Assembly: GCA_034669905.1 (NCBI GenBank)
Contig: JAXMOL010000006.1
Location: 1-64,000 of the forward strand
DNA from: Candidatus Hydrogenedentota bacterium
GTDB taxonomy: Bacteria; Hydrogenedentota; Hydrogenedentia; Hydrogenedentales; JAEUWI01
DNA: 64,000 nt
Direction of reading: 5' to 3'
The first letter of the stretch is position 1. The number at the start of each line of letters is the position of its first letter. This document shows, piece by piece, positions 21,445 through 36,665 of this stretch. The notes under the pieces are model-generated. The model was not told the DNA's origin. It worked only from the letters and a program-made list of their open reading frames with translations, and did not search any database. Made by a program: the position numbers and the translations under genes.

Positions 21445-22497
21445 CTATTGCGGAGTCGCCGTCCGGGGTGCGAGCAAGAAGTCGGGGCTTTCGGTTACGA
21501 GGCAGTGGATTCCCGCGCTGGCGAAAACGGGGAAATGGGTGAGCGGGAGGGCGGTGGGCACCACGGCCTCGGCGCCGACGATGGTCTCCAGGACTTCCGC
21601 TACCGCATCATTACCACCGCTGATCACGACCGCTCCTTCGGGGGATTGGACGAGGCTGGTGGCATAGGGCAGGGCGGTGTCTGGAATCCCATGGACCATG
21701 ATGCCCGCTTCATCGCAGATGCGACGAACTACCGCCATCGATTCCGCCGCGTCGAGTGGTGCGTTCAGGGGGCCTGTTCGGTATCCGGGCCCCAGTATCA
21801 GGTGGCAGGTGCCATCCGGTCCACGGACGAGGCCTGCGGCCCGGTCGATGTGGTGGTCGTGAAAAATACCCGACAGGTGACCTTCCTGATCGATGGAGCA
21901 GAAAATTCCGGCGGGTATCTCCACGACCTGCAGACCCCGGTCCCGCAGGCGGTTGAGGACCCCTTGTTCCGGTGCCTCGTTTTTCTCGGGGTGGCGAAAG
22001 ACGATGAGGGTATCTTCACTGAACAGTACCCGCCCGCCTTCGGACCAACAGCTTGGCCAGCAGGAGACGTCCCCACGGTCTCCGACACCGGGTTTGAGCC
22101 AGGTGGGACTGGTCAGGGCGATGCCGTGGGCCGGGAGGTAGACCATCAAATCCCGGGGATAGAGAAAGGTGCTCCCCTCTTCGGGAGCGTCTATTCGAAA
22201 TGCTGGATAGCGGTCGGCGCGCAGTCGATCACTGAGTTCAGACGTTGCGGTGCTGAGATTCAGAATGCGAAAGGGCATGCCTGCGCGGAGGAGTGCGTCG
22301 AGAATCGACAAATACTCCGCATCGAAGCGACGGGTAAATTGGGCTTCATCACCGCTATCCGCGAGAACCGTGCGGGCAGTATCCAGATTTCCCAACAGGA
22401 CCCCCGGCACCTGCCGATTGGCGTGTTGCAGTTTATACTCGGGGAACCCGGTCAACCACAACCGGCCCGCCTGTGTTGACGTCATATCGTGCCCCAC
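21445..22497 (-). CDS. Pentein-superfamily (amidinotransferase / arginine or peptidyl-arginine deiminase-like) enzyme
   Basis: Ordered pentein motifs YPRD, SEGG, HID and C-terminal GIHC (Cys nucleophile). Start is GTG 22497 or ATG 22485. Confidence 0.72.
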   Translation of the reverse strand: MGHDMTSTQAGRLWLTGFPEYKLQHANRQVPGVLLGNLDTARTVLADSGDEAQFTRRFDAEYLSILDALLRAGMPFRILNLSTATSELSDRLRADRYPAFRIDAPEEGSTFLYPRDLMVYLPAHGIALTSPTWLKPGVGDRGDVSCWPSCWSEGGRVLFSEDTLIVFRHPEKNEAPEQGVLNRLRDRGLQVVEIPAGIFCSIDQEGHLSGIFHDHHIDRAAGLVRGPDGTCHLILGPGYRTGPLNAPLDAAESMAVVRRICDEAGIMVHGIPDTALPYATSLVQSPEGAVVISGGNDAVAEVLETIVGAEAVVPTALPLTHFPVFASAGIHCLVTESPDFLLAPRTATPQ

Positions 22498-22520
22498 TAC
22501 CGAACGGGTAGCTAACCGGA

Positions 22521-22763
22521 TTACTTCTTGAGCCAGGTATTTGCCCCACCGAGATTATTGATCTTGCGGATATCCCGAATGCCGACTCGAATCCCTGTAC
22601 GCGTAGCCGCCCGTTTACCGATCCGTTCCCCTACCCGTATTCCAATCCGTGCGCCACCCTTGATTTCCGATTCCGGGAGGGCTTGGGTATCCTGATCACT
22701 CACGTCTGCCGCAGCATCCCCCGGCAGGTCATTTACGGATATTTTCTTTGGTTGTTCGCTCAT
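22521..22763 (-). CDS. Double-glycine-leader precursor peptide A (80 aa), Arg-periodic core
   Basis: AAGGAGG RBS. Acidic leader ending EIKGG. Core ARIGIRVGERIGKRAATRTGIRVGIRDIRKINNLGGANTWLKK. Confidence 0.8.
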   Translation of the reverse strand: MSEQPKKISVNDLPGDAAADVSDQDTQALPESEIKGGARIGIRVGERIGKRAATRTGIRVGIRDIRKINNLGGANTWLKK

Positions 22764-23139
22764 GGTGAAGGCCTCCTTACAGCGTTTCCAGTCCGGCAAA
22801 TTGCGCGGACCGATACGGCTTGTTGCTTCAATGTCAAAATACTACCACAGAATTGAGATTTCTGCGTCCGCCGCCTTGGCATGCGCTCAGGGTAGGCCCC
22901 ATCGCATCGAGGGCAGGCCCATGATTGCAGGGGGCGTGCTCTGAAGCAACGTTGGGGGAACTAACTTTGCCGGTCTATGCGGCTGACTGCCCACAGGCGC
23001 TCTTCGTACCGGAATGAGGTCTGCAGAGTATCGTTACAGGACACAAGGGTATTGAAATGAAGTGCGCCCAGACAACCTGGTTCTTGCGGAAATATCGTAA
23101 GTGGTTGTATAAGAAGTGTTTGTAGAGATGGGGGTGTTT

Positions 23140-23155
23140 TGGCACGAGAATCGCT
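23140..23155 (+). promoter_or_regulatory. Sigma54 -24/-12 promoter upstream of peptide B
   Basis: TGGCACGAGAATCGCT with GG-N10-GC spacing, ~40 nt before the peptide ATG. Confidence 0.75.
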
Positions 23156-23192
23156 TTACCATGGCGCAGTCTTAATCATAAGGAGTATCGCT

Positions 23193-23399
23193 ATGAGCAC
23201 TAATAAACAGGATAACGAGATTAAAAACGGGCCAAAGAAACGCGTCATTCGTCTGGATGACCTGGATTCACTGGATGATGTGGTTGGTGGTAGCCAGGGC
23301 AAGCTGCTCTTTGGGGAAGAAGCGGCGCCTCAGAAGTCGCCTTTTGAGGGCGTGTTCAAACCCAACAACGGACGGGGGGGAGCTTCGGGTAAAGCCTGA
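23193..23399 (+). CDS. Double-glycine-leader-like peptide B (68 aa)
   Basis: AAGGAG RBS. PKKRVIRLDDLDSLDDVVGG leader with L(-7) and V(-4). Core SQGKLLFGEEAAPQKSPFEGVFKPNNGRGGASGKA. Confidence 0.7.
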   Translation: MSTNKQDNEIKNGPKKRVIRLDDLDSLDDVVGGSQGKLLFGEEAAPQKSPFEGVFKPNNGRGGASGKA

Positions 23400-23422
23400 G
23401 TAGCGCCAGACCTTTCTTTTGC

Positions 23423-23457
23423 GACCGCCGGAGTGTCTATTGGCGGTCTTTTTCTTT
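23423..23457 (+). terminator. Probable intrinsic terminator/attenuator after peptide B
   Basis: GACCGCCG/TGGCGGTC stem followed by TTTTTCTTT. Confidence 0.6.
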
Positions 23458-23614
23458 CATTCGCCCTTCGTAAACGAAGTGCACTCATCCATCGCGTTGA
23501 ATGGCAATGGGTGCCGGAAATTCGTGATAATCATGCGGAAACGAATTCGTTTCCAGAATCCCCACGGTGGCAATCGTCATGGTATTGCGGGGGGGGCAAC
23601 AGGAGGAAGCTGTC

Positions 23615-24706
23615 ATGACCGATGTGGATGTTTCGGCGGAGGTGGAAAGTTTGCCAATCCTCTATCAGCGATGGCTGGCGTCGATTCTGCCCGGGGGCAT
23701 GCCGCGTGAACGGATTGCAACGTGTCTGGATTGTGCCATGTGTGCCCGCACCCGGGAAGAGCATCAGACAATGTTGGGTGCCTATAATCCCGATACCAAG
23801 TGCTGCACGTATTTTCCCAACGTGCCCAACTACCTGGTGGGGCGGGCTATCGATGTGGATACTCCCGGGGCCCGGGTCATGCTCGGCTTCGTGGAATCGG
23901 GCACGACATCCGAAGCAAACGTGACCATGTGTGGGGTCGCGGCGACAGGCAAACGGTCGGCGTTGTATGATCTTGCGGGGCAGGGTGGCGGATTCGGGCG
24001 CGACCCTGATTTGCTCTGTCCCTATGCGATTGCGCGCGATACACAGGAGGGGCCCCTCTGCGGCATATGGGCGCATCGAAATTCCGTGTGCAGCACCTAC
24101 TTCTGCAAGCACGTAAACGGCGGATCGGGGCGCCACCTCTGGACGGCCATTCGGAATCTTTTTCGTCATATCGAGGCCTCCCTTTCCTGGTGGGCCATCG
24201 CCCAATTGATTCCAGAGATGGGTACCCTCATGCTCCGCCCGCCTGGCCAACAAGAAGAGCGCGTCGACAGCGTCCTTTCGCCAACGGCCTGGACCCGTTG
24301 GCCGGGCACGCGGGCCGATTTTTATCGGGCCTGCAGTGAAAAGGTGGAGGCGCTCTCCTGGGAGGAGGTCGTTGCTGTGGTGGGGTTCAAGGCCGCGCTC
24401 TATGTGGAAGAAGTGCACGCGAACTATGACCATGTCTATGGCGAAACCTTCCCCGACCCGCTACGCCCCACGACTTATACGACGATCCAGGCTGGCCATG
24501 AACGTACTACCATACAAGGTGGTGGCAGTGGTGGCAATGAACATGTCGAAGTACCGTCCATCCTGCTGCGCCTGTTGCCCTACTTTGATGGACGGTCCAC
24601 GCAAGAGGTGCTTTCCGACATTAAGGCGCGGGAGCAGGTCGGGCTGGACGTGGCACTGGTGCGCAAATTGTATGATTTTGGCATCCTGGAACGTGCCGAC
24701 GCATAA
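23615..24706 (+). CDS. Cys-rich YkgJ/FliB-like putative Fe-S/Zn protein with C-terminal winged-helix-like segment
   Basis: AGGAGG RBS. CLDCAMC...KCCTYFP...CPY...CGIWAHRNSVCSTYFC. C-terminal LLPYFDGRSTQEVL...LVRKLYDFGILE. Confidence 0.6.
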   Translation: MTDVDVSAEVESLPILYQRWLASILPGGMPRERIATCLDCAMCARTREEHQTMLGAYNPDTKCCTYFPNVPNYLVGRAIDVDTPGARVMLGFVESGTTSEANVTMCGVAATGKRSALYDLAGQGGGFGRDPDLLCPYAIARDTQEGPLCGIWAHRNSVCSTYFCKHVNGGSGRHLWTAIRNLFRHIEASLSWWAIAQLIPEMGTLMLRPPGQQEERVDSVLSPTAWTRWPGTRADFYRACSEKVEALSWEEVVAVVGFKAALYVEEVHANYDHVYGETFPDPLRPTTYTTIQAGHERTTIQGGGSGGNEHVEVPSILLRLLPYFDGRSTQEVLSDIKAREQVGLDVALVRKLYDFGILERADA

Positions 24707-24728
24707 GAGTTCAAAGGAGCAAGACGTC

Positions 24729-25790
24729 ATGAGCCCGCAGAGCAAGGCCACACCATACGACGGGACCTCACCCCCTTCCAGGGGCACCACGTCCAACAGC
24801 GTCTCCATGGAGAAGCTGGACGATTACAGCAGTGCCGATGCGTGCATGAATCGCTGCTTGCACCTGGCAAAGTTGGCGGCACGCACGGACCTCCCTGTCC
24901 TCGTACTTGGCGAATCGGGCACGGGAAAGACCGTCATCGCCCAGGCGATTCACCGATCGTCTGCTCGACATCAGGCGCCCTTCGTATCCTTCAATGCCGC
25001 GGCGTTGAGCGATACGCTGTTGGACAGTCAGTTGTTTGGTCACGAGAAAGGGGCGTTTACGGGGGCCGAGCGGCAGGTGAAGGGAAAGTTTGAGCTCGCT
25101 CACGAGGGAACCCTTTTCTTTGATGAAATAGCGGACCTTTCCTTGACCGGACAGGCCAAGATTCTACGTGCGGTGGAGGGGGGCGAGTTTGAGCGCCTTG
25201 GCGGAGAAGGTCTGCATCGGGCGGATGTACGGCTCATTACGGCGACCTGCCACCCGATTCGGGACTTTGTGGCGGGGCGCCAATTCCGGCGGGATCTGTT
25301 TTATCGGATCAAGGGGATTACTATCACGGTGCCGCCCTTGCGTGACCGCCACAAGGACCTTCCGCGAATGATACGGCGAGAAATCGTCCGGGCGGCCAAT
25401 AGCATGCGTAAGGTCGTGGCGGGCATTGAGGAAGATGCCCTGGAATTGCTCTTGAATCATCCATGGCCCGGCAACCTGCGTGAACTGAAGCAGGTGATTC
25501 AGGTGGCGGTCGCCCTCTCGGAAGGGGATACGATTACCCGCGACGGGGTGATCCTCGATACTTTTGCCTTTGAATCACCACCGGAGGCGCAGGAAAGGGT
25601 GTCTGAGCCGAAGGCCTCGCCATCCCCAACTCCTTCGTCCGCAGAACCCCTGACGCTGGGTGAGATGGAGAAGGCCCATATTGTTGCAGTAATGGACATG
25701 CACAACGGCAATAAGCGTCGCAGTGCCAAGACCTTGGGCGTCAGCCGGTCCACCCTCGACCGTAAACTGCTGCGCTATGGCCTGGAATAG
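24729..25790 (+). CDS. Sigma54-dependent transcriptional activator (bEBP) lacking an N-terminal sensory domain
   Basis: GESGTGKT, LFGHEKGAFTGA, FFDEI, FRRDLFYRI, WPGNLREL, Fis-type HTH (AKTLGVSRSTLDRKL). Only ~30 aa precede the AAA+ domain. AAGGAG RBS. Confidence 0.92.
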   Translation: MSPQSKATPYDGTSPPSRGTTSNSVSMEKLDDYSSADACMNRCLHLAKLAARTDLPVLVLGESGTGKTVIAQAIHRSSARHQAPFVSFNAAALSDTLLDSQLFGHEKGAFTGAERQVKGKFELAHEGTLFFDEIADLSLTGQAKILRAVEGGEFERLGGEGLHRADVRLITATCHPIRDFVAGRQFRRDLFYRIKGITITVPPLRDRHKDLPRMIRREIVRAANSMRKVVAGIEEDALELLLNHPWPGNLRELKQVIQVAVALSEGDTITRDGVILDTFAFESPPEAQERVSEPKASPSPTPSSAEPLTLGEMEKAHIVAVMDMHNGNKRRSAKTLGVSRSTLDRKLLRYGLE

Positions 25791-25798
25791 TATCTATT

Positions 25799-25816
25799 CG
25801 ATACCGTGGTATCGTT
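25799..25816. promoter_or_regulatory. Candidate bEBP upstream activating sequence
   Basis: Inverted repeat CGATACC-GT-GGTATCG about 110-125 nt upstream of the sigma54 site. GTATCGTT also occurs at 23028-23035 at similar spacing from the other promoter. Confidence 0.5.
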
Positions 25817-25924
25817 TTGCGAATCAGTTGGTCCTTGTGTTGGGTGTCCCCATGGGGTGGCTGTGTCCCCCTCCCAATACGTAAGTAACCGTCAGTCAAG
25901 TGGTTATTGCTTTGTGGCCGGGGT

Positions 25925-25940
25925 TGGCACAGCGTTTGCG
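25925..25940 (+). promoter_or_regulatory. Sigma54 -24/-12 promoter upstream of peptides C and D
   Basis: TGGCACAGCGTTTGCG: TGGCAC-N5-TTGC consensus with exact GG-N10-GC spacing. Confidence 0.82.
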
Positions 25941-26064
25941 TTACCGTTCGTATGCGACGTGATTCGCACGAGGAAATTTTAAGCGCAACCCAATACCCGA
26001 CTCATCGAAATCGCTTGGTCCGGGATAACGCAAGGCTCCCTGCACGGGGGTGGAGGAAATCACT

Positions 26065-26238
26065 ATGGCAACGATTGAAAACAACGATCTGAATGCTGAA
26101 GAGACCCTGAGCGAGGCCCAAGCCAAGGACGTGAAGGGTGGCGTTGCACTGCTGCTGCCCGCCGTGCAATCGGCGCGCGAAGCGGCACGTTCGAAAGACC
26201 CGAGCAGTTCGGTCGAATCCAAATCCGTCCGTCGTTAG
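26065..26238 (+). CDS. Double-glycine-leader precursor peptide C (57 aa), pilin/DUF1559-motif core
   Basis: GGAGG RBS. Leader ...ETLSEAQAKDVKGG. Core VALLLPAVQSAREAARSKDPSSSVESKSVRR. Confidence 0.82.
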   Translation: MATIENNDLNAEETLSEAQAKDVKGGVALLLPAVQSAREAARSKDPSSSVESKSVRR

Positions 26239-26284
26239 TAGCGATAGAACCCATTAACCCGATCAACGAAATGAGGAAGAAGCC

Positions 26285-26509
26285 ATGAGCAAGATCAACA
26301 ATGAAGACCTGAACGAAAAGAAAGACGAGAAGGAAACCCTCTCCGCCGAGGATATGGAGCAGGTGAAGGGTGGCGCTGGGTACTTGAAAATCGGCGATAT
26401 TAAGGGGGAGAGCCTGAAGATTGGCGACATCAAGGGAGAAAGCTTGAAGATTCCCGACATTGCGGGTGAGAGTCAGCGGATCTCCGATGTCACCTTAAAG
26501 CGTGGGTAA
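26285..26509 (+). CDS. Double-glycine-leader precursor peptide D (74 aa), Hcp/tail-tube-motif repeat core
   Basis: GAGGA RBS. Canonical leader ...ETLSAEDMEQVKGG. Core AGY(LKIGDIKGES)2LKIPDIAGESQRISDVTLKRG. Confidence 0.85.
   Translation: MSKINNEDLNEKKDEKETLSAEDMEQVKGGAGYLKIGDIKGESLKIGDIKGESLKIPDIAGESQRISDVTLKRG
26384..26473 (+). repeat. Three 30-nt coding repeats in peptide D
   Basis: ttgaaaatcggcgatattaagggggagagc / ctgaagattggcgacatcaagggagaaagc / ttgaagattcccgacattgcgggtgagagt. Units 1 and 2 differ only synonymously. Confidence 0.9.
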
Positions 26510-26570
26510 TCGGGAGTACCTGACAGGGACGATGCCTGGGTGAGAATCAACTGATTTTTCGGGGTGGGAG

Positions 26571-26606
26571 AGGCGCGATGGGTTACCATCGCGCCTTTGT
26601 GTTTTT
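26571..26606 (+). terminator. Intrinsic terminator after peptides C/D
   Basis: AGGCGCGATGG-GTTA-CCATCGCGCCT followed by TTGTGTTTTT. Confidence 0.8.
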
Positions 26607-26690
26607 GCGACCTGATGTCCTGATGCCCGGTATAGGAACGGACGTTGGCATGATGGCCCGGAAACTCTGCCGACCGCTTTGCGGCCACTG

Positions 26691-27887
26691 TTACCGGGGC
26701 GCCTCCTGGTCACGCATATTTTCCCGGAGACTACGGAGGGGTTCAAAGGCGTATTCGATAAGGGTGCGTCGCCCTACCTGGATTCGGGCTTTGCCACCCA
26801 TGCCCACTCGCAGGAGCTGGTCCGCTCCGAGACGGTCTTTTTCGGGGGTGACATGGGCCACGAAGCGCCCCTGGTCGTTACCGGGCAGGGCGGCGGGACT
26901 CAGCCAGGTCAGTTCACCATTGACCACGCCGAATCGTTGGTACGGGAAGGCTTCAAAAAGCAGTTTCGCCGACTGGCCTTCCCGGAGCTTTGCCATGCTC
27001 CGCTCTTCCAATTGAAGATGGGCGCGGGCCGGCGCATCGGCGGGGGCGATCTGACAGAGCTCTTGCCCCACGGAAACAACGTCACCGGGGCGTTTTCGGG
27101 AGACCGAAAGGATGACCCCGCGATAGGGGGAGCGCACTGCTATAACGTCGTCTGCCACATCCTTCAGGCGCGCGTCGAGCCCTTCGAGTTGCACCGTAAT
27201 TCGAACTTCCTCCAGGGCGATTTCTTCCATCATGTGTTGGTGATCCGCATCCAACCGGGCGAGGGTAAGCTGAGCGGCCTTGAACTGCTCATCGGCCAGT
27301 GCGGCATCGAGCTCGGCCTGGGCCTGTCCGAGTTGCTGTGACAGGAGGTCGACCGTAGAGTTCAGCCCTTCGGCGGTGAGGGCCTTCATACGGTCAGAAA
27401 CATCCTGGTAGACGCTCACATGCTGGATGCGATAGGAAACCTCCCGCTCCCGCTGCTTGATCTCCGCCTCCTGGATGCTGCGGTTAATGGCGTGGGATTC
27501 CATGGCGGCGTCGCGACGCTGGCTGAGGGCCGCCAGGTCTTTTTCGAGGGTGCGCTTTTGGACGGAGAGCTCGAGAATGAGTGGGGACCGAATGGTGAAG
27601 AGCAGGGCGCCGGCCTCAACCTCGCCCCGGGTGCTTGCATAGACCTGGTCGATTACGCCCGCAAAGGGGCTCTGTATCGGGTCGGAGCCGGACTCGGGCA
27701 GCATGATGAAGGGGGCCTCGACGGTTTCCGGCCAATCGATGATGACGGATGCGACGCCCACGGCACCACAGAAAAGGATGATGAGAAAGGCGATGACCCG
27801 CGCGCTACGGAAGGGCATCTCGTAGGGGAATAACTCCGTTACTTTTCCCGCCTTGGGTCGTTCCAGATTGCTTCCGTGGGTGCTCAT
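26691..27887 (-). CDS. HlyD-family type I secretion adaptor
   Basis: N-terminal TM, IQSPFAGVI, coiled coil, RSPYRGVI, FEAFPYQRFGVVNG, RTLIEYAFEPL. Confidence 0.9.
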   Translation of the reverse strand: MSTHGSNLERPKAGKVTELFPYEMPFRSARVIAFLIILFCGAVGVASVIIDWPETVEAPFIMLPESGSDPIQSPFAGVIDQVYASTRGEVEAGALLFTIRSPLILELSVQKRTLEKDLAALSQRRDAAMESHAINRSIQEAEIKQREREVSYRIQHVSVYQDVSDRMKALTAEGLNSTVDLLSQQLGQAQAELDAALADEQFKAAQLTLARLDADHQHMMEEIALEEVRITVQLEGLDARLKDVADDVIAVRSPYRGVILSVSRKRPGDVVSVGQELCQIAPADAPARAHLQLEERSMAKLREGQSAKLLFEAFPYQRFGVVNGELTWLSPAALPGNDQGRFVAHVTPEKDRLGADQLLRVGMGGKARIQVGRRTLIEYAFEPLRSLRENMRDQEAPR

Positions 27888-27890
27888 GGC

Positions 27891-30800
27891 TTAAAAGCCC
27901 CCCTGTTGGCTTTGGAGGTAGAAGTACAGCCCTTTTCGTGCCATGAGTTCCTCGTGGGAACCCATCTCGACCACGGCACCTTTTTCCAGCACCACGATAC
28001 GGTCGGCGTTTCGGATGGTGCTCAGTCGGTGGGCGATGACCACCGCGGAACGGTTGGCCAGAATCTGGTCGAGGTTTTCCTGAATGGCCCGCTCGGATTC
28101 GCTATCCAGGGCGCTGGTGGCTTCGTCAAAAATGAGGATGGGGGGATTGTTGTAGACGGCCCGGGCAATAGCCACCCGCTGTTTCTGGCCGCCGGAAATC
28201 GCAATGCCCGTCTCCCCGACCCGGGTCTCATAGCCCAATGGGAATCGGGCAATAAACTCGTGGGCATTCGCCACGTTGGCGGCCCATGCGGCCCGTTGCA
28301 TATCGGGCTCGGGGTCACCCAGGGCGATGTTTTCGAGAATCGTGCCATCGAAAATGTAGTTGTCTTGCAGCACCAGGCCAATCTGCTGTCGCAGGTCCCG
28401 GTAGTTCAGGGTATTCAAATCAACTCCGTCAAAGTGGAGGGAGCCGGAAGTGGGTTCCAACAGACCGGCAAGCAATTTGATGAGGGTCGTTTTTCCGGAG
28501 CCACTCCGCCCCACGACGGCCACCGTCTTGCCGGGCGGAATCTCCAGGTTGATGTTGTCCAGAATGAGGGGACTGCCCGGGCCACCGTAGTGAAAGGAGA
28601 CTCCCCGTAATTCGACCCGACCTTCCAGGGTGGAGACGGGCTGCAGTCGACTGCGGTCATGGCCCTGCTCCGGCTCAAACTCGAAGATGTCGTTGAGGCG
28701 ATTCATGAGCACGTCCGACATCTGGAACTCGTCCCATAGTCCGAGCACCGTCAGTATGGGGGCGTAGGCCATGGCGACGAGGGCATTGAAGGCGACAAAT
28801 CCACCGATCGTGATCTGGCCTTCCATGACCATGTGGGCGCCAAACCAGAGGAAGAGCACGGTAGACAGATAACCGACCGCCTGAACGGCGCTGTCATAAA
28901 ACATGATCGTAAAGTTGCTTTTGAATTGGGTCTTGGCCAGGCCCAGGAATTCGTTGAGCATGCGGTCCCGAAACTGCTGTTCCCCCGCACTCGCCTTCAC
29001 GGCTTCGATACCCCGAATGGAATCAATCTGGTGCGACTGATAGCGGCCATAGCTCTCTTCCAGGCGATTGAAGAGGGGCCCCAGGACCCGTCGCGAGATG
29101 AACATGAGTCCCACATAGAAGGGCATGGTGGCGAGAAAGACGAGGAGCAATTGGATGCTGTAGACGGCCATTAAACCCAGATAGGCGCCAACCTGAACCA
29201 AGGCCAGGAGGCCCATCAGCCCGCTCTGGACGATGAACTCACGGACCTGCCGTGCGCCGGCCAGACGGCGCTGGATATCGCCGATGCGGCGACTGTTGAA
29301 ATAGCTCATGGGCAGGGCGAGCATGCGGCGTGTCAGGTGATCGAGGATGGCCGCATCAATATGCACGGCCGCAAAACTCAGCATGAAACGCTGAAGCACA
29401 TTGGCGGACAGCATGAAGCCCAGGGCCACGATCATGGCAACCACCATGATGTGCAGGGTTTCCACATCGCCGTCTACGACCACGCGGTCCACGATGACCT
29501 GGGTAAAGACCGGGAGCAGAAGTTGCAGTCCGCTCGTGATGATGGCCAGGAGGAGAATCTGCACCAGGGTGCCGCGGAAAGGTTTGATGAACTGGAAGGT
29601 CCATCCCCAGGTGCGCTGATTCTCCGGTGCCGATTCGAACGACGGCGTGTAGTCCATGAGCGCGGCGTAGCCACTCCATTTTTCCGCGAAAGTCTTTCGC
29701 GGAATGCGCTCGTAGCCTGCGGCCGGGTCAACAATGTAGACATAGCGTTTGGTGACGCGCTCGGCGACGATCCAGTGGTTGCCTTCCCAATGAACGATGG
29801 CGGGCAAGGAAATGGAATCGATACTTTCGGGCTCTACCTTGACGGCGCGGGCGGCGAGTCCCAATTCGTTGGCGGCACCGACAATGGAGCGCAGGCTGGT
29901 GCCATCCAAGGCCGTATGGGCGAGTTGGCGAATACGCGGAAGGCTGACCCGCCGACCATGGTAACGGCAGATCATAGCCAGGGCAGCGGCCCCACAATCC
30001 ATCTCGTCAATCTGGCGAACGTAGGGAACCCGTTTGCCCCAGGCCCGGGCTTTTCGAGTCGCTTTCTTTTTCGTTTTTGCGGTATCGGACGGCGCCTCGG
30101 TGTGGATCCCATCGATATTGAGGGATTCGGAATGGGCGCTCTTCGGCAGGATTTCCTGGGAGAAGTCCAGCGGCACCTTGGCCTCTGTCTGGTAGGTGTA
30201 GGCGGCCATGCGGTCTTCCATGGCCTGGGCGAAGTCGGCGTGGCCGGCCATGAGCGCCTGCAGGGCTTCCCGATTCATGCAGAGCAGGCGGCACTCGGAA
30301 ACACTCTGAACCGTCGCCGTGCGTGGGGTGCCCTGCAGGGCCGATACTTCGCCGAAATAGTCCCCCGCGCGAAGGAAGGCGACATTACGCTCAGCGCCTC
30401 CTTCCGTGACGAAGACCCGGGCGCGGCCCTCTTCGATGATGTAGAAATCGCCGGAGACTTCGCCTTCACGAACGATGGTCTCGTTGGCGGCGACCGACAT
30501 GGGCGAGAGGTGTTCGAGAAAGTCTTGTAATGTGTTGGGGGGTAAGCTCCCGAAGCCCTCGGTGGCCCGTAGGAAGTTGTGAACTTTTCGGTGGCGAATA
30601 CGCAGTTGCTGAAGGTTTCGGAGTTCCGGCGCTTCACCGAGAATGCGGTGAAAATCTACCCGGTCAAGGCGGTAGAGCCGTACGTCACCACTGGCCCGGA
30701 CGGTTGCGGTGCGGGTGCCCTCCTCCAGCAGGGCCATTTCCCCGAATTCATCCCCCGGGCGCAATACGTTCAGGGGAATTTCTTCGCCCGTTTCCCCGCG

Positions 30801-30989
30801 CTTGAAGACCCGTGCCCTTCCTTCGACCAGAATATAATAGGCATCGCCGGGATCCCCTTCACGAACGATAACGTCCCCAAAGGTGTAGGTGACTTCCTTA
30901 CAGGACTCGGCAATACGCTCTCGTGCCTGGGGCGGAAAAAACTCCAGCAGTTCGAGTTTGGCGATGATGTTCAGTTTGTCCTGGGTCAT
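27891..30989 (-). CDS. Peptidase-containing ABC transporter (C39 PCAT) with two N-terminal cNMP-binding domains
   Basis: Two cNMP domains (GDEFGEMAL...RTATV; GDYFGEVSAL...RTATV). C39 QIDEMDCG...HWEGNHW...VDPA with Cys/His/Asp intact. TMD, GRSGSGKTT, ISGGQKQR, FDEATSALD. TGATG overlap with the upstream gene. Confidence 0.95.
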   Translation of the reverse strand: MTQDKLNIIAKLELLEFFPPQARERIAESCKEVTYTFGDVIVREGDPGDAYYILVEGRARVFKRGETGEEIPLNVLRPGDEFGEMALLEEGTRTATVRASGDVRLYRLDRVDFHRILGEAPELRNLQQLRIRHRKVHNFLRATEGFGSLPPNTLQDFLEHLSPMSVAANETIVREGEVSGDFYIIEEGRARVFVTEGGAERNVAFLRAGDYFGEVSALQGTPRTATVQSVSECRLLCMNREALQALMAGHADFAQAMEDRMAAYTYQTEAKVPLDFSQEILPKSAHSESLNIDGIHTEAPSDTAKTKKKATRKARAWGKRVPYVRQIDEMDCGAAALAMICRYHGRRVSLPRIRQLAHTALDGTSLRSIVGAANELGLAARAVKVEPESIDSISLPAIVHWEGNHWIVAERVTKRYVYIVDPAAGYERIPRKTFAEKWSGYAALMDYTPSFESAPENQRTWGWTFQFIKPFRGTLVQILLLAIITSGLQLLLPVFTQVIVDRVVVDGDVETLHIMVVAMIVALGFMLSANVLQRFMLSFAAVHIDAAILDHLTRRMLALPMSYFNSRRIGDIQRRLAGARQVREFIVQSGLMGLLALVQVGAYLGLMAVYSIQLLLVFLATMPFYVGLMFISRRVLGPLFNRLEESYGRYQSHQIDSIRGIEAVKASAGEQQFRDRMLNEFLGLAKTQFKSNFTIMFYDSAVQAVGYLSTVLFLWFGAHMVMEGQITIGGFVAFNALVAMAYAPILTVLGLWDEFQMSDVLMNRLNDIFEFEPEQGHDRSRLQPVSTLEGRVELRGVSFHYGGPGSPLILDNINLEIPPGKTVAVVGRSGSGKTTLIKLLAGLLEPTSGSLHFDGVDLNTLNYRDLRQQIGLVLQDNYIFDGTILENIALGDPEPDMQRAAWAANVANAHEFIARFPLGYETRVGETGIAISGGQKQRVAIARAVYNNPPILIFDEATSALDSESERAIQENLDQILANRSAVVIAHRLSTIRNADRIVVLEKGAVVEMGSHEELMARKGLYFYLQSQQGGF

Positions 30990-31969
30990 CACGATGTGGC
31001 ACCCACCCATTGAATATGCTCGTGGACAAGTGGCCGTATGGCGTCGGTCACGATCCGATCAGAGAGCAGGGAACAGGTGCGTTCGTCCGCGAGGTCGGGC
31101 TCCTTTTTTTCATGGACATACATGAGGATGTGGCGCCCCTCCTGCTCAAAGGGGGGGAGCACACTCCCGGGTGCTGCGGAGAGTGCCGCCGTCTGAAGGG
31201 AGGGGGAGGGGAGCTGATTAAGGAGTACCTCCTGACGCATAAATTCTCCCTTGGCCATTTCACACACCTTCTCCATGGAGAGTCCGTCTTCCGTAATACA
31301 AAGTACTGCTTCTCGCACGGCGGCGTCCGTATCGAAGATGCCGATCTCACAGCGGAGCAGGAAGAAGTTCTGATATTGTACGCGGAGGGCGCTTTTCAAT
31401 CGGGCGGTGCTCAACAGGTCGGTGCGGAATTCTTCATAGCGCTGGCCATAGGCGTTCAGTCGTTCGGGCCACGTGGCAAGATCAGCATCGATGTGGTCTG
31501 CGCCCTTCGACGAGCAGACGATTGCAACGATTTCCGCGAGTTGTTGGCACCATGGTTGGAAGCTGCCGGAGAAAACCAGGTCGGGCCAGAGCACCTCATC
31601 CACGTCTTGTGCAGTGATCGTTTCTGCTGCGGCAGGGCGGGTATGGGCGTTGGACGTGTAGTGTTCACGACAGGCTTCTCGCTCCAGATAGTCGCCAAAG
31701 GCCTCAATAGAAACACCGTGGGCATCCATCCATTCCTGGGTAGCCTGGGCGGAGCGGAGGCCGAGGTCTCTTCGAAAGGCTTCGGAACGGGCCTGCAACA
31801 GGTCGTCTGCCACCTGAAAGCCATCGGCCTGGGCCTGCGCCAGGGCGGACAAACGCTCTCGGGCCTGCAATCGCACCGAATCGAGTTGCCCCCATTCTTC
31901 TGCGGCGGCCAATACGTGTTCGGCGCAAAATACCACGCCGCCACAAGAAAATAGAGAAACACCGCTCAA
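30989..31969 (-). CDS. SurA/PpiC-related chaperone-like protein of the peptide export operon
   Basis: LQARSEAFRRDLGLRSAQATQEWMDAHGVSIEAFGDYLE resembles the N-domain of PpiC-related proteins found beside PCAT/HlyD. Degenerate parvulin-like C-terminus. Translationally coupled to the PCAT. Confidence 0.6.
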   Translation of the reverse strand: MSGVSLFSCGGVVFCAEHVLAAAEEWGQLDSVRLQARERLSALAQAQADGFQVADDLLQARSEAFRRDLGLRSAQATQEWMDAHGVSIEAFGDYLEREACREHYTSNAHTRPAAAETITAQDVDEVLWPDLVFSGSFQPWCQQLAEIVAIVCSSKGADHIDADLATWPERLNAYGQRYEEFRTDLLSTARLKSALRVQYQNFFLLRCEIGIFDTDAAVREAVLCITEDGLSMEKVCEMAKGEFMRQEVLLNQLPSPSLQTAALSAAPGSVLPPFEQEGRHILMYVHEKKEPDLADERTCSLLSDRIVTDAIRPLVHEHIQWVGATS

Positions 31970-33825: not shown

Positions 33826-33960
33826 ATGCACTCCGAAAAACTGCACTTGGATCTCGATAGGGTCAACGACACGGGGCGAAGCCCGCTAGAGATCGCGCAA
33901 CATACGGGCAACGAAGAAATGATTGCGCTTGTCGAAAGAATCATGAGGGAAACAGGTTGA
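33826..33960 (+). pseudogene. Single ankyrin-repeat fragment (44 aa)
   Basis: MHSEKLHLDLDRVNDTGRSPLEIAQHTGNEEMIALVERIMRETG matches the G-x-(T/S)PL-x-x-A-x-x-x-G-x-x-E-x-x-x-L ankyrin pattern. In-frame stop just upstream. Confidence 0.5.
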
Positions 33961-36665
33961 GTTATTCCATTTCGAGATACATCATTCCGTGCGTAGTCCT
34001 GATGGCCGGGGGACTCCTGCCGTCTATTTCTGCGACCGCCCAAACGGTGGTCACCTTCCCCGACCGTGCACTCGACGGACTTGTGCGCTGGGCGTTGGAC
34101 AAGGGGCCGGAGGATGTAATCCTGGACAGCGACATGGCGGAGCTCACGGAGTTGGTGGATATATTCCCCGGTGGGGAGCGAATTCGCCACCTTGATGGTC
34201 TCGAATCTGCCTCCAATCTTACCTTGCTTGCCCTGGAGGATAATTTACTGGAAGACTTGAGCCCATTGGCCGGATTGACACAGCTTCAAGAATTGTATGT
34301 CTCCGAGAATCGCATTTCCGATTTGACGCCCCTGGCCGAGCTGACCGCACTGAGAATTGCTATCGCGAACGACAATCGAATCTCCGATATATCCCCCTTG
34401 GCGAACTTGACGGCATTGACGGTACTTAGACTCAATGAAAATGCCATCCAATATCTGGAAGGGCTCACGAACTTAGAGCAGTTGACTTATCTGGGTCTTC
34501 AGGATAATCGCGTGTCGGACGTGGGGCCCCTTGAGGGGCTTGCCCAGCTCGAGGAGGTGAACGCCGGGGACAACGAGATCGTGGACCTTGCGCCCTTGTT
34601 GAACAATGCGCAGGCTGGCGTATTAGAGCGCATCTACGTCGGCCATAACCTGCTCGATGCTACGGCGGTGTGTACTATCATCCCGGAACTTGATGCGCTG
34701 GGCGTGTACGTTGGCTATTTGATGGAAGTAATCCCTACGCCCTATCCGCGTCCTGATCTTAGCATCGTTTGCGACGATCCCATGGGCGACCGCGATCAGG
34801 ATGGCCTGAGCAATCTGGATGAGGTGAACTTTGGTGCCAGCATGGACGTGGCCGATTCAGACAGCGACGGCTACCTGGACGGCGCCGAGGTGGCCGCCGG
34901 TAGTGACCCGATAGACGATGGCGCCTTTCCCGGGGCCGTCCCCGTAATTATCCCTGACCCGGATTTGGAGTCTGCGGTTCGGAATGACCTGGAGCGGTAC
35001 CGCGGCGACCTCTTCGTGCATCACCTGGAATCGTTGACCACATTGTTTGCTTCGGACCGGGATATCGTTTCGCTTGAAGGGATCGAGTACGCGGCAAATC
35101 TGGAAGTGTTGCATTTGGGCGGCAATAGGATTGGGGACGTTTCGCCACTGAAGGGCCTCGGAAAGCTGCGGACCTTGGACTTGTCGGACAATGGTATAAC
35201 GGACGCGGCCCCGATTGCCGAGTTGAAGCGTATCAGAAGTCTTCATGGCCTGGACCTGTCAGGCAATGCGATTGTGGATGTGGAGCCGATTACGGAGTTG
35301 GAAGGTCTTAACAGCCTTACGCTCCATGATAACCGGATTGAGGATGGGGCCCCGCTGGGCCGTATGAAGGCCTTGGTTTCTCTGGGCTTGAACCAAAATC
35401 CACTGCAGTCTATAGATTTCATCCGTGAACTCAATCCACTCATGATTCTGCGCTTGTCCGGCGTAGGTTGTAGCGACATCTCCGCCGTAGCTGCCCACCC
35501 CGGACTCCAGATACTGGAACTTGCGGACAACGGCATTGTGGACATCAGTCCGCTTGAAGGACTCTATCTGTCGGAGCGGCTGGATCTCCGAAACAACCGT
35601 ATTCGTGACATCAGGCCCCTTCGAAACAAGTTTCTCCTGGCCAGACTCGAGTTGGATGGGAACGAGATATTTAACCCGGGGCCCTTAGTTACCCTGCAAA
35701 CGCTCAGAGGGCTCTCAATCGCAGACAATAACATCACCGGGGCCAATGCGATTGGTACGCTTGGCCGTCTCATCTCCATTAACCTCCGCGCCAACGAACT
35801 GCGTGACGGTGGTTTTGTACGGGGACTTCGGAATAGTTGGAGGTTGAATCTTTCAAAGAACCGACTGTCCGTCCTTCCGCCGGTGAATGCACTGAGTGAG
35901 CTGCGGGAACTCGACATCAGCGACAACGAGATATCAATCATGGAGTCGCTCGACGTGCCTTTTGTCGATGATAGTCTGGATCTGAGTGGAAACCAGTTCA
36001 CGGAAATTCCGCCGCCCCTGGACACCAATCTGGCTGTCGCCGTAGTGGAGCTGTCGCGAAATGCCGTGCCGCTGGACACCATCTGCGCCTACGTAAACCA
36101 GGCGTTCGCCGGTTCCGAGCCGATGACATTGCCCGACGAAACGGTGCGGTTGCTCGACATATGTGCCGCCCCCGATGCGGATATTGATATGGATGGTCTG
36201 GGCGCCTATGACGAATTGGTGGCGGGCAGTGATCCGGAAGCGTCCGACACCGACGGCGATGGCTTCTCTGACGGCGAAGAGGTGGCCGCGGGGACCTATC
36301 CCTACCTGGCGGACAGCTACCCCATCGAGCATCCCAGCACGATGGCCCCCGGGGAGATGGCCGAGGTGTTGCTCGGTCAGTTTGAGACGCTCCATAGCGG
36401 AGGGACGGGCTACCGGCTGGAGTACGGGGAATGCCAGCAGGCTATCGACGGCTTGACCTATGCCCAGTTTGAAGTGTTGGACGCGAACCAGAGCGGCGGC
36501 CTCAGTGAGCTGGAGCTGGAAAAGGCTCTGACGGCGGCGGTGGGTTGTAATCTGGAGATGGACAGCGCCAAGCATGCATTCCATGACAACAAGAGCGACT
36601 TGGCGGTGCTGGGGCTGGCGTTGATGACCTTGGTTGCCATGGGGCGCCGTGGTGGGGATATCTAG
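33957..36665 (+). CDS. Internalin-like leucine-rich-repeat surface protein with Ca-binding DxDxDG repeats, EF-hand-like motif and C-terminal TM anchor
   Basis: Signal peptide. Two LRR blocks each capped by (F/I)PDxxL. DSDSDG/DTDGDG repeats, DANQSGGLSELEL, hydrophobic C-terminus followed by RR. Confidence 0.9.
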   Translation: MSYSISRYIIPCVVLMAGGLLPSISATAQTVVTFPDRALDGLVRWALDKGPEDVILDSDMAELTELVDIFPGGERIRHLDGLESASNLTLLALEDNLLEDLSPLAGLTQLQELYVSENRISDLTPLAELTALRIAIANDNRISDISPLANLTALTVLRLNENAIQYLEGLTNLEQLTYLGLQDNRVSDVGPLEGLAQLEEVNAGDNEIVDLAPLLNNAQAGVLERIYVGHNLLDATAVCTIIPELDALGVYVGYLMEVIPTPYPRPDLSIVCDDPMGDRDQDGLSNLDEVNFGASMDVADSDSDGYLDGAEVAAGSDPIDDGAFPGAVPVIIPDPDLESAVRNDLERYRGDLFVHHLESLTTLFASDRDIVSLEGIEYAANLEVLHLGGNRIGDVSPLKGLGKLRTLDLSDNGITDAAPIAELKRIRSLHGLDLSGNAIVDVEPITELEGLNSLTLHDNRIEDGAPLGRMKALVSLGLNQNPLQSIDFIRELNPLMILRLSGVGCSDISAVAAHPGLQILELADNGIVDISPLEGLYLSERLDLRNNRIRDIRPLRNKFLLARLELDGNEIFNPGPLVTLQTLRGLSIADNNITGANAIGTLGRLISINLRANELRDGGFVRGLRNSWRLNLSKNRLSVLPPVNALSELRELDISDNEISIMESLDVPFVDDSLDLSGNQFTEIPPPLDTNLAVAVVELSRNAVPLDTICAYVNQAFAGSEPMTLPDETVRLLDICAAPDADIDMDGLGAYDELVAGSDPEASDTDGDGFSDGEEVAAGTYPYLADSYPIEHPSTMAPGEMAEVLLGQFETLHSGGTGYRLEYGECQQAIDGLTYAQFEVLDANQSGGLSELELEKALTAAVGCNLEMDSAKHAFHDNKSDLAVLGLALMTLVAMGRRGGDI

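What the first reader, a model, noticed from the sequence alone, without database searches (positions are those of the whole stretch)
21445..31969. Sigma54-linked multi-peptide export/RiPP-like locus with four dissimilar double-Gly cores
Seen: four small ORFs with strong RBSs and acidic leaders ending (I/V)xGG, sharing an upstream I-x(2-3)-(N/D/E)-D-L motif (KISVNDL, VIRLDDL, TIENNDL, KINNEDL) but with unrelated cores. They cluster with an intact C39 PCAT, HlyD, a PpiC-like chaperone, a pentein, a Cys-rich protein and a bEBP. Established: C39 PCATs cleave after GG and export the core. Inference: this is one regulated system secreting a peptide cocktail. No lanthipeptide, YcaO, radical-SAM or lasso enzyme is present, so it fits no RiPP class I recognise.
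Basis: partly seen in the sequence, partly recalled or inferred. Interest (0 to 1): 0.92.

Follow-up and report, generated by a model that had tools for sequence, protein, structure and literature searches.

The report
Exported peptides copying rival weapon fragments
This gene cluster appears to modify and export a set of short peptides, many of which copy conserved pieces of other bacteria's injection-tube and pilus proteins, an arrangement that may let cells jam, decoy or signal about their rivals' machinery.

Summary
In detail: four double-glycine precursors sit beside an intact cNMP2-C39 exporter, HlyD, a MirC-like chaperone, a pentein, a Cys-rich protein and a sensor-less sigma54 activator, in a Ca. 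Hydrogenedentota genome. Three corrections. (1) There is a candidate enzyme: the Cys-rich protein ends in an RRE fold (best Z 8.3), and a model docks the leader on it (0.71, best control 0.00). (2) The cores are not random. pepC copies the DUF1559 pilin motif; pepD repeats the Hcp N-terminus and ends in a phage-tube motif. Across related loci in four or more phyla, 34 of 117 cores match Hcp (unrelated donor sets: 0-1 of 117). In one locus six precursors tile Hcp end to end. Others match subtilase, RTX, PATR and DUF5908 motifs. (3) The pentein and its Arg-rich peptide form a separable two-gene module (4 of 4 genomes). No capture machinery or DNA-level trace of recent capture was found. Half of the Cys-rich relatives stand alone. 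Expression, chemistry and function are untested. No description was found in ten literature searches.

The parts
21445..22497 (-). Pentein-fold amidino enzyme (likely start 22485); candidate peptidyl-Arg deiminase or hydrolase for pepA
   Evidence: AF2 pLDDT 87; Foldseek DDAH/amidinotransferase/agmatine deiminase, best E 2e-6; P114-R115-D116, E153-G-G, H216-x-D218 invariant and C332 in 90% or more of 17 homologues
22521..22763 (-). pepA: GG precursor with Arg-rich xGxR-repeat core
   Evidence: Homologue directly upstream of the pentein in 4 of 4 genomes and in metagenome loci L144, L145, L149
23140..23154 (+). sigma54-like promoter (1 mismatch), 39 nt before pepB
   Evidence: same position in relatives L024, L025, L027, L028
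23193..23399 (+). pepB: conserved precursor family (LxDL...GG.xKxxFG), travels with the bEBP; possibly regulatory
   Evidence: 11 of 80 loci, 10 of them with the bEBP; alignment
23423..23448 (+). terminator-like hairpin after pepB
   Evidence: 13 found against 10.3 expected, so the scan alone is weak
23615..24706 (+). Cys-rich protein: N-terminal CxxCxxC/CC metal-binding domain plus C-terminal RRE; candidate modifying enzyme
24729..25790 (+). sigma54 bEBP without N-terminal sensor domain
   Evidence: RpoN present in the genome
25925..25939 (+). perfect sigma54 -24/-12 site, 126 nt before pepC
   Evidence: only perfect match in the window (0.42 expected per 64 kb from genome density); conserved in L013, L024, L144
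26065..26238 (+). pepC: GG precursor whose core begins with the DUF1559 pilin motif
   Evidence: 3 of 3 plasmid hits are Planctomycete DUF1559 proteins, 81-88% over 16 aa, E 0.2-4; own-genome DUF1559 pilins are the next hits after the paralogue
26285..26509 (+). pepD: GG precursor, core = three Hcp N-terminal motifs plus a gp19-type tube motif
   Evidence: z 4.1 against Hcp donors (at threshold); z 3.2 against gp19 donors, its orthologue 5.7; Pfam T6SS_HCP E 0.5
26569..26598 (+). 13-bp terminator hairpin after pepD
26691..27887 (-). HlyD-type adaptor
27891..31010 (-). PCAT: 2x cNMP + C39 + ABC
30989..31969 (-). PpiC/SurA-like partner protein, distant MirC (TIGR04500) relative

Best explanation
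A sigma54-controlled, RiPP-type system that exports a library of protein-mimic peptides. Precursor genes share a leader ending (V/I)KGG. Their cores are short copies of conserved segments of other proteins, mainly the contractile-injection tube Hcp, but also gp19-type tubes, DUF1559 pilins, subtilases and RTX/PATR repeats. Proposed order of events: (1) the bEBP switches on the precursor genes (inferred from conserved sigma54 sites); (2) the Cys-rich protein binds the leader through its RRE and holds the KGG junction at its cysteine cluster, where it probably makes an Fe-S-dependent modification, such as FliB-like Lys methylation (fold and model shown; chemistry inferred); (3) the MirC-like protein chaperones the enzyme or substrate (analogy); (4) the C39 PCAT cuts after GG and exports the core through HlyD (established for the family); (5) outside, the cores most likely act by mimicry on other organisms' tube or pilus assembly, or on receptors that sense such fragments (inferred). 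In this lineage an added module, pentein plus pepA, most likely converts Arg to citrulline in the xGxR repeats and uses the same exporter.
For: RRE: VIA-align rows 1-5, 7, 9, 11-14 and 16 are RiPP enzymes or RREs, best TigE Z 8.3, rmsd 3.0, 82 aligned; a homologue is fused to PqqD domains. Complex model: 0.71, best of 3 controls 0.00; the mark was reached by 116 of 157 solved and 2 of 215 mismatched pairs; runs agree in at least 73% of contacts; partner pLDDT at least 55. Leader residues 17-26 sit on the RRE strand and helix, and residues 27-33 touch the Cys domain. Likeness to solved RRE-leader complexes may help this pass. Cores: 34 of 117 distinct cores beat all 60 shuffles with z of 4 or more against 26 Hcp proteins; three unrelated donor sets of similar size gave 1, 1 and 0 of 117. 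Six L036 cores align to Hcp residues 2-23, 8-27, 50-71, 64-85, 87-107 and 131-153, five of them to one donor, in a genome where no full Hcp or VipB was found. Pfam hits at E<0.01 for 5 of 53 cores: S8, RTX, Hcp, DUF5908, PATR. The window's cores differ from the host's own Hcp and pilin versions. Lys at -3 in 84 of 113 leaders.
Against: No activity, expression or mature product is shown. 41 of 80 Cys-rich loci have no GG precursor nearby, and 4 of 5 such genomes gave no full-length PCAT match, so the family also does something else. Similar winged helices occur on non-RiPP protein methyltransferases (rows 6 and 15). The PF03692 link is weak (10 of 49 members, best E 0.011). The window's own pepD is only at threshold, and pepA and pepB match no donor tested. 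The 34 cores include close relatives, and the Hcp donor set was chosen after I noticed the likeness. About two thirds of cores have no identified donor. Hcp tubes assemble inside the attacker (recalled), so an outside peptide would need uptake.
Confidence: 0.55

Rival explanations
1. Scavenged raw material, not mimicry: precursor genes picked up fragments of other genes by ordinary recombination, and the peptides act as generic bacteriocins or signals, as with hypervariable prochlorosins. The likeness to donors is history, not function.
For: Donors are mixed and include an EF-Tu-like piece (E 0.09). Some cores are mosaics of several motifs (L085, L101). Most cores have no identified donor.
Against: The same conserved Hcp and pilin motifs recur in separate phyla and distant branches of the enzyme tree. 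Identical codons are at chance level (51 of 83 against 48.2 expected), so the likeness is kept at protein level only.
Confidence: 0.25
2. The Cys-rich protein is not an enzyme but a leader-binding sensor or chaperone that controls the sensor-less bEBP (with pepB as signal) or feeds the exporter; the cores leave unmodified.
For: It is directly upstream of the bEBP here; the bEBP lacks a sensor domain; pepB tracks the bEBP; it also occurs beside LanC-like, ATP-grasp and B12 radical-SAM enzymes in other loci.
Against: The bEBP is in only 12 of 80 loci. Six Cys are invariant among 49 homologues, and the model puts the leader-core junction at them.
Confidence: 0.25
3. The peptides regulate the producer's own T6SS and pili (self-signalling or self-inhibition).
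For: This genome has a T6SS with Hcp and 45 pilin-type motifs.
Against: VipB found in only 1 of 5 genomes carrying such precursor loci. In a 201-genome Acidobacteriota sample only 1 of 9 Cys-rich carriers had an Hcp match, against 27 of 201 overall. Cores resemble foreign versions more than the host's. These genomes may be incomplete.
Confidence: 0.1
4. For the pentein: it acts on free Arg or agmatine, or makes ornithine or transfers an amidino group, rather than making peptidyl-citrulline.
For: The fold hits cover DDAH, agmatine deiminase and amidinotransferases about equally; no PAD Pfam hit; the context of most of the 244 distant relatives is unchecked.
Against: An xGxR peptide is directly upstream in 4 of 4 genomes; the only 2 of 117 cores with three or more GxR are pentein-linked.
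Confidence: 0.3

Closest known systems
Double-glycine bacteriocin/RiPP export by C39 PCAT + HlyD (NHLM-type TIGR03796, HlyB-like)
   Same: GG leaders, intact C39 catalytic residues, ABC exporter, adaptor
   Different: Two cNMP domains; below every NCBIfam cut-off (TIGR03796 549 vs 853 bits); no second ABC subunit; no NHLP or Nif11 leader hit
Prochlorosins (ProcM/ProcA); abstract of 10.1101/2020.03.09.984088 and listing of PMC10783134 seen
   Same: Many precursors with a shared leader and variable cores, some far from the enzyme (orphans on contigs C28, C38, C47 here)
   Different: No LanM; only 13 of 117 cores contain Cys; cores resemble parts of other proteins; no recurring transposase among neighbours
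Rosaritide cluster, MirC (TIGR04500); PMC13097080 section 9 and passages read
   Same: PpiC/SurA-like partner beside a PCAT and a peptide enzyme
   Different: Only 48.8 bits against 180; no ATP-grasp synthetase in the window
FliB / PF03692 CxxCxxCC proteins; PMC8598068 passages read
   Same: Cys-rich N-terminal domain; FliB is a [4Fe-4S] protein Lys methyltransferase with 8 conserved Cys
   Different: Motif is CxxCxxC-x19-CC; only weak profile hits; extra RRE; no FliB structure appeared in the fold searches
Citrulassin PAD (PF03068); abstract of 10.1101/2020.07.16.207027 seen
   Same: Pentein proposed to act on Arg of a ribosomal peptide
   Different: Small DDAH-sized enzyme without a PAD Pfam hit, encoded beside its linear GG precursor, which has several xGxR sites

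Membership tests
C39 PCAT double-Gly export system | C39 domain with catalytic Cys/His on an ABC exporter | tested here: met
C39 PCAT double-Gly export system | GG-ending leaders and HlyD adaptor that co-occur with the PCAT | tested here: met
   20 of 20 PCAT loci carry precursors
C39 PCAT double-Gly export system | cleavage and secretion of these peptides | not testable with these tools
   needs biochemistry
NHLM/NHLP system | TIGR03796/03797/03794 above cut-off; NHLP leader | tested here: not met
   549/853, 402/709, 38/156 bits; no leader hit
Lanthipeptide, YcaO, radical-SAM, lasso, graspetide classes | class-defining enzyme in the cluster | tested here: not met
   none in the window cluster; such enzymes occur as extras in some related loci
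RRE-dependent RiPP enzyme | three-strand/three-helix RRE fold | tested here: met
   residues 277-363, Z 8.3 to TigE, many RREs in the top rows
RRE-dependent RiPP enzyme | leader binds along the RRE strand | tested here: inconclusive
   model supports it, 0.71 vs best control 0.00; a model, not a measurement
RRE-dependent RiPP enzyme | installs a modification | not testable with these tools
   needs MS
PF03692 / FliB | CxxCxxCC domain above cut-off | tested here: inconclusive
   10 of 49 members hit weakly, best E 0.011; the window protein does not
TIGR04500 (MirC) | score above curated cut-off | tested here: not met
   48.8 vs 180 bits; relatives 18-56 bits or no hit
Pentein superfamily | alpha/beta propeller fold and Cys-His-Asp/Glu motifs | tested here: met
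PAD (PF03068) | Pfam match | tested here: not met
Sensor-less sigma54 bEBP | AAA+ with GAFTGA, HTH, no regulatory domain; RpoN and target sites | tested here: met
Hcp (PF05638) | full 129-position domain | tested here: not met
   cores match only 10-25-residue segments

The most novel reading that the evidence does not exclude
A heritable peptide 'memory': bacteria have repeatedly fused fragments of rivals' contractile-injection tubes, pili and secreted proteins to a common export leader, building libraries (one tiles a whole Hcp). These are modified by a new RRE/Fe-S enzyme class and secreted as natural dominant-negative decoys or alarm signals against those machines.
Probability: 0.3. Interest if true: 0.97.

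Novelty: categorically new. Interest (0 to 1): 0.87.

Why it matters
Two things would be new. First, RiPP cores built from conserved pieces of other proteins. I found no description of this in ten full-text searches (open-access library only, supplements not seen). A designed mimic peptide is known to block T6SS assembly (PMC8406304, abstract seen), so natural versions would point to an overlooked form of anti-T6SS or anti-pilus defence, or to fragment-based signalling, in widespread uncultured soil and sediment phyla. Second, an uncharacterised Cys-rich RRE protein (235 matches in GTDB species genomes) and a small pentein, each with named candidate substrates, can be tested directly by co-expression and mass spectrometry.

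Tried and rejected
Expression: no RNA holder was listed, which is no evidence either way. Capture machinery: no recurring reverse transcriptase, Cas1 or transposase among 107 neighbouring genes scanned, chosen from 200; one integrase fragment near L033. Recent DNA capture: no excess of identical codons (donor from another genome, so a weak test). Viral contigs: no Cys-rich relative. PHROGs on 18 cores: nothing informative. NCBIfam on 30 cores: only E 0.01-0.1 hits (Hcp, EF-Tu, mycosin). gp19 donors: only 3 of 117 cores passed, one of them probably spurious. The N-terminal domain of the Cys-rich protein found no fold match, but it was not folded alone, so this is inconclusive. PDB sequence searches were blank. 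An attempted out-of-sample replication on 15 further regions found precursors only in one Hydrogenedentota region, and those two cores show no Hcp or pilin motif by eye; the 13 Acidobacteriota regions (some overlapping loci already counted) were stand-alone Cys-rich genes. Two of the 53 references, and the query, were given on the wrong strand, so those blanks mean nothing; several short cores included a few leader residues to reach 20 aa. Earlier-finding look-ups returned nothing. Rejected: annotation artefact (RBS, conservation, null tests); degraded hcp pseudogenes (each piece has its own leader, RBS and stop). Labels such as FG-GAP, BNR, eCIS ATPase and H-X9-DG for other cores are recalled and come from no call.
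Full report
Observation. The cluster at 21445-31969 is as described. The nearest named relatives are Ca. Hydrogenedentota. Transcription units inferred from strand and signals: ppiC-like>PCAT>hlyD (-), pepC>pepD (+), pepB and Cys-rich>bEBP (+), pepA>pentein (-). The only perfect sigma54 site in the window lies 126 nt before pepC, and a one-mismatch site lies 39 nt before pepB. One perfect site per window is not unusual by itself (0.42 expected), but both positions recur in relatives, before an orphan precursor of this genome (L021) and before a precursor in an Acidobacteriota locus (L036).

Conservation. The PpiC-like gene matched 11 of 41 genomes searched, one weakly. The Cys-rich gene matched 10 of 135 phylum genomes, the same ten. 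Fetched loci show the same gene set with pepB-, pepC- and pepD-type precursors. The genome holds a second Cys-rich gene beside a pepD-type precursor (C3) and five more orphan precursors (C28, C38, C47). A scan of GTDB species genomes gave 235 Cys-rich relatives, of which 80 were returned. Of these 80, 20 hold the PCAT, 21 HlyD, 12 the PpiC-like gene and 12 the bEBP; many contigs are short. An iterated leader HMM, thresholded on reversed sequences, found 103 precursors in 34 loci, and inspection added five loci. All 20 PCAT loci have precursors. The other 41 loci have none nearby; precursor-linked copies cluster on the tree (12 changes against 27 shuffled, quick tree) but do not form one clade. 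Leaders are acidic in Hydrogenedentota and Blastocatellia and Lys-rich in other Acidobacteriota, Gemmatimonadota and Methylomirabilota.

The candidate enzyme. The Cys-rich protein folds with pLDDT 87. Residues 277-363 match RREs of TigE, MibB, MccB, PbtF, ThcOx, TbtB, TbiB1, NisB and others; one homologue carries extra PqqD domains. The N-terminal part has CxxCxxC, KCC, CP[HY], CxIW and CxTxFCK motifs in 95, 119, 115, 119 and 115 of 120 homologues and a weak PF03692 link. FliB, described with a similar motif, is a [4Fe-4S] Lys methyltransferase (PMC8598068, passages). A model with pepD 1-44 scored 0.71 against a best control of 0.00 (mark reached by 116 of 157 solved and 2 of 215 mismatched pairs; contacts agree at least 73%; partner pLDDT at least 55). 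It places the leader on the RRE and the VKGG junction on the Cys domain. The pass may draw on solved RRE complexes. Lys is at -3 in 84 of 113 leaders. The chemistry is inference. The PpiC-like protein is a distant relative of MirC, which a graspetide synthetase needs as a partner (PMC13097080, section 9).

The cores. pepC starts with the DUF1559 pilin motif in its Planctomycete form (3 of 3 plasmid hits, E 0.2-4), not the host form; 8 of 117 cores carry it. pepD repeats the Hcp N-terminal motif and ends in a gp19-type motif. Against 26 Hcp proteins (24 from an Acidobacteriota sample, plus L111 and the host's L112), 34 of 117 distinct cores beat all 60 shuffles with z of 4 or more; three unrelated donor sets gave 1, 1 and 0. 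The matches come from 17 loci plus the window, in Hydrogenedentota, Acidobacteriota, Gemmatimonadota and Methylomirabilota, and cover different parts of Hcp. In L036 six separate small genes, each with leader, RBS and stop, cover Hcp 2-23, 8-27, 50-71, 64-85, 87-107 and 131-153 (z 10-24), while that genome gave no full Hcp or VipB. The single plasmid hit of one such core is an annotated Hcp (E 10). Pfam independently hit 5 of 53 cores at E<0.01: subtilase, RTX, Hcp, DUF5908 and PATR. Some cores are mosaics, for example pilin plus Hcp-like in L101 (by eye). Limits: the cores are not independent, the donor set was chosen after the likeness was noticed, the window's pepD is at threshold, and most cores have no named donor. 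Codon identity is at chance, and no capture machinery recurs, so how the cores arose is unexplained; old capture followed by selection at protein level fits best.

The pentein module. Fold and catalytic motifs are clear. It was found in 4 of 135 phylum genomes, all one genus, each time directly behind a GG precursor with xGxR repeats; in two genomes the pair lies away from the exporter. Of 6 metagenome loci, two are near copies of this cluster, one (L149) shows the peptide upstream, one (L148) puts a 43%-identical pentein directly before the PpiC-like gene and PCAT, and two are too short to tell. Arg deimination is the likeliest reaction, by analogy with the citrulassin PAD (10.1101/2020.07.16.207027, abstract), but the family differs.

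pepB. Its family keeps both leader and early core across phyla and occurs in 11 of 80 loci, 10 with the bEBP. It lacks the -3 Lys and matches no donor tested. A regulatory role is plausible and untested.

Mechanism and odds. Best reading (0.55): sigma54-induced precursors are bound and modified by the RRE enzyme, cut and exported by the PCAT, and act through their likeness to foreign machine parts. Rivals: scavenged sequence without mimic function (0.25); Cys-rich protein as sensor or chaperone (0.25); self-regulation (0.1). These address different steps and do not sum to one. Against self-regulation, Cys-rich carriers are not enriched for Hcp (1 of 9 against 27 of 201). A designed mimic peptide can block T6SS assembly (PMC8406304, abstract), which shows feasibility only.

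Novelty. The exporter is a known kind. The enzyme family, the pentein module and above all the borrowed cores were not found in ten literature searches. That library lacks most subscription papers, and supplements of RiPP-mining papers, which I did not see, may list these clusters. The closest analogue, prochlorosins, has variable cores but no reported donor proteins in the abstract I read. Verdict: real, widespread and strange; function untested. Interest 0.87.

Noticed in passing
G000 C47 63318-63684 and C38 80894-81257 (L021, L022): Tandem near-identical pepD-type orphan precursors at two contig ends, with repeated intergenic DNA; probably one longer array broken in assembly
   Followed up: partly
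G000 C3 176243-177750 (L020): Second Cys-rich gene (44% identical) followed by one Hcp-motif precursor, without exporter
   Followed up: partly
G000 C9 around 42985 (L112): The host's own T6SS (sheath, Hcp, TssE/F-like genes); its Hcp differs from the cores
   Followed up: partly
L030, L043: Cys-rich gene and PCAT beside a LanC-like protein and Cys-containing cores; L043 also has an ATP-grasp enzyme
   Followed up: no
L067, L068: Six and nine precursors interleaved with two B12 radical-SAM genes and a vanadium haloperoxidase-like gene
   Followed up: no
L034 3888-4517, L070 8357-8689, L075 8465-8677: Polyprotein precursors with several leader-GG-core units in one ORF
   Followed up: no
L069, L093, L053, L094: A recurring core type ending in K-A-D-A-x-x-A-Y/F-I-R/K-G with no donor identified
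   Followed up: no
L011 18836-19252, L028 9530-9946: An extra small SurA/TIGR04500-like gene upstream of the Cys-rich gene in several same-genus genomes, absent from the window
   Followed up: partly
41 of 80 loci: Stand-alone Cys-rich/RRE genes, mostly Myxococcota, Acidobacteriota and others, with no nearby precursor; substrate unknown
   Followed up: partly
window 33957-36665: 902-aa secreted LRR protein with TSP3 and EF-hand repeats and a C-terminal anchor-like tail; unrelated to the cluster
   Followed up: no
window about 26040-26060, L021, L022: A shared short GC-rich element (CCCTG..CA.GGGG.GGAGGA) overlaps the RBS of several precursors; possible translational control
   Followed up: no
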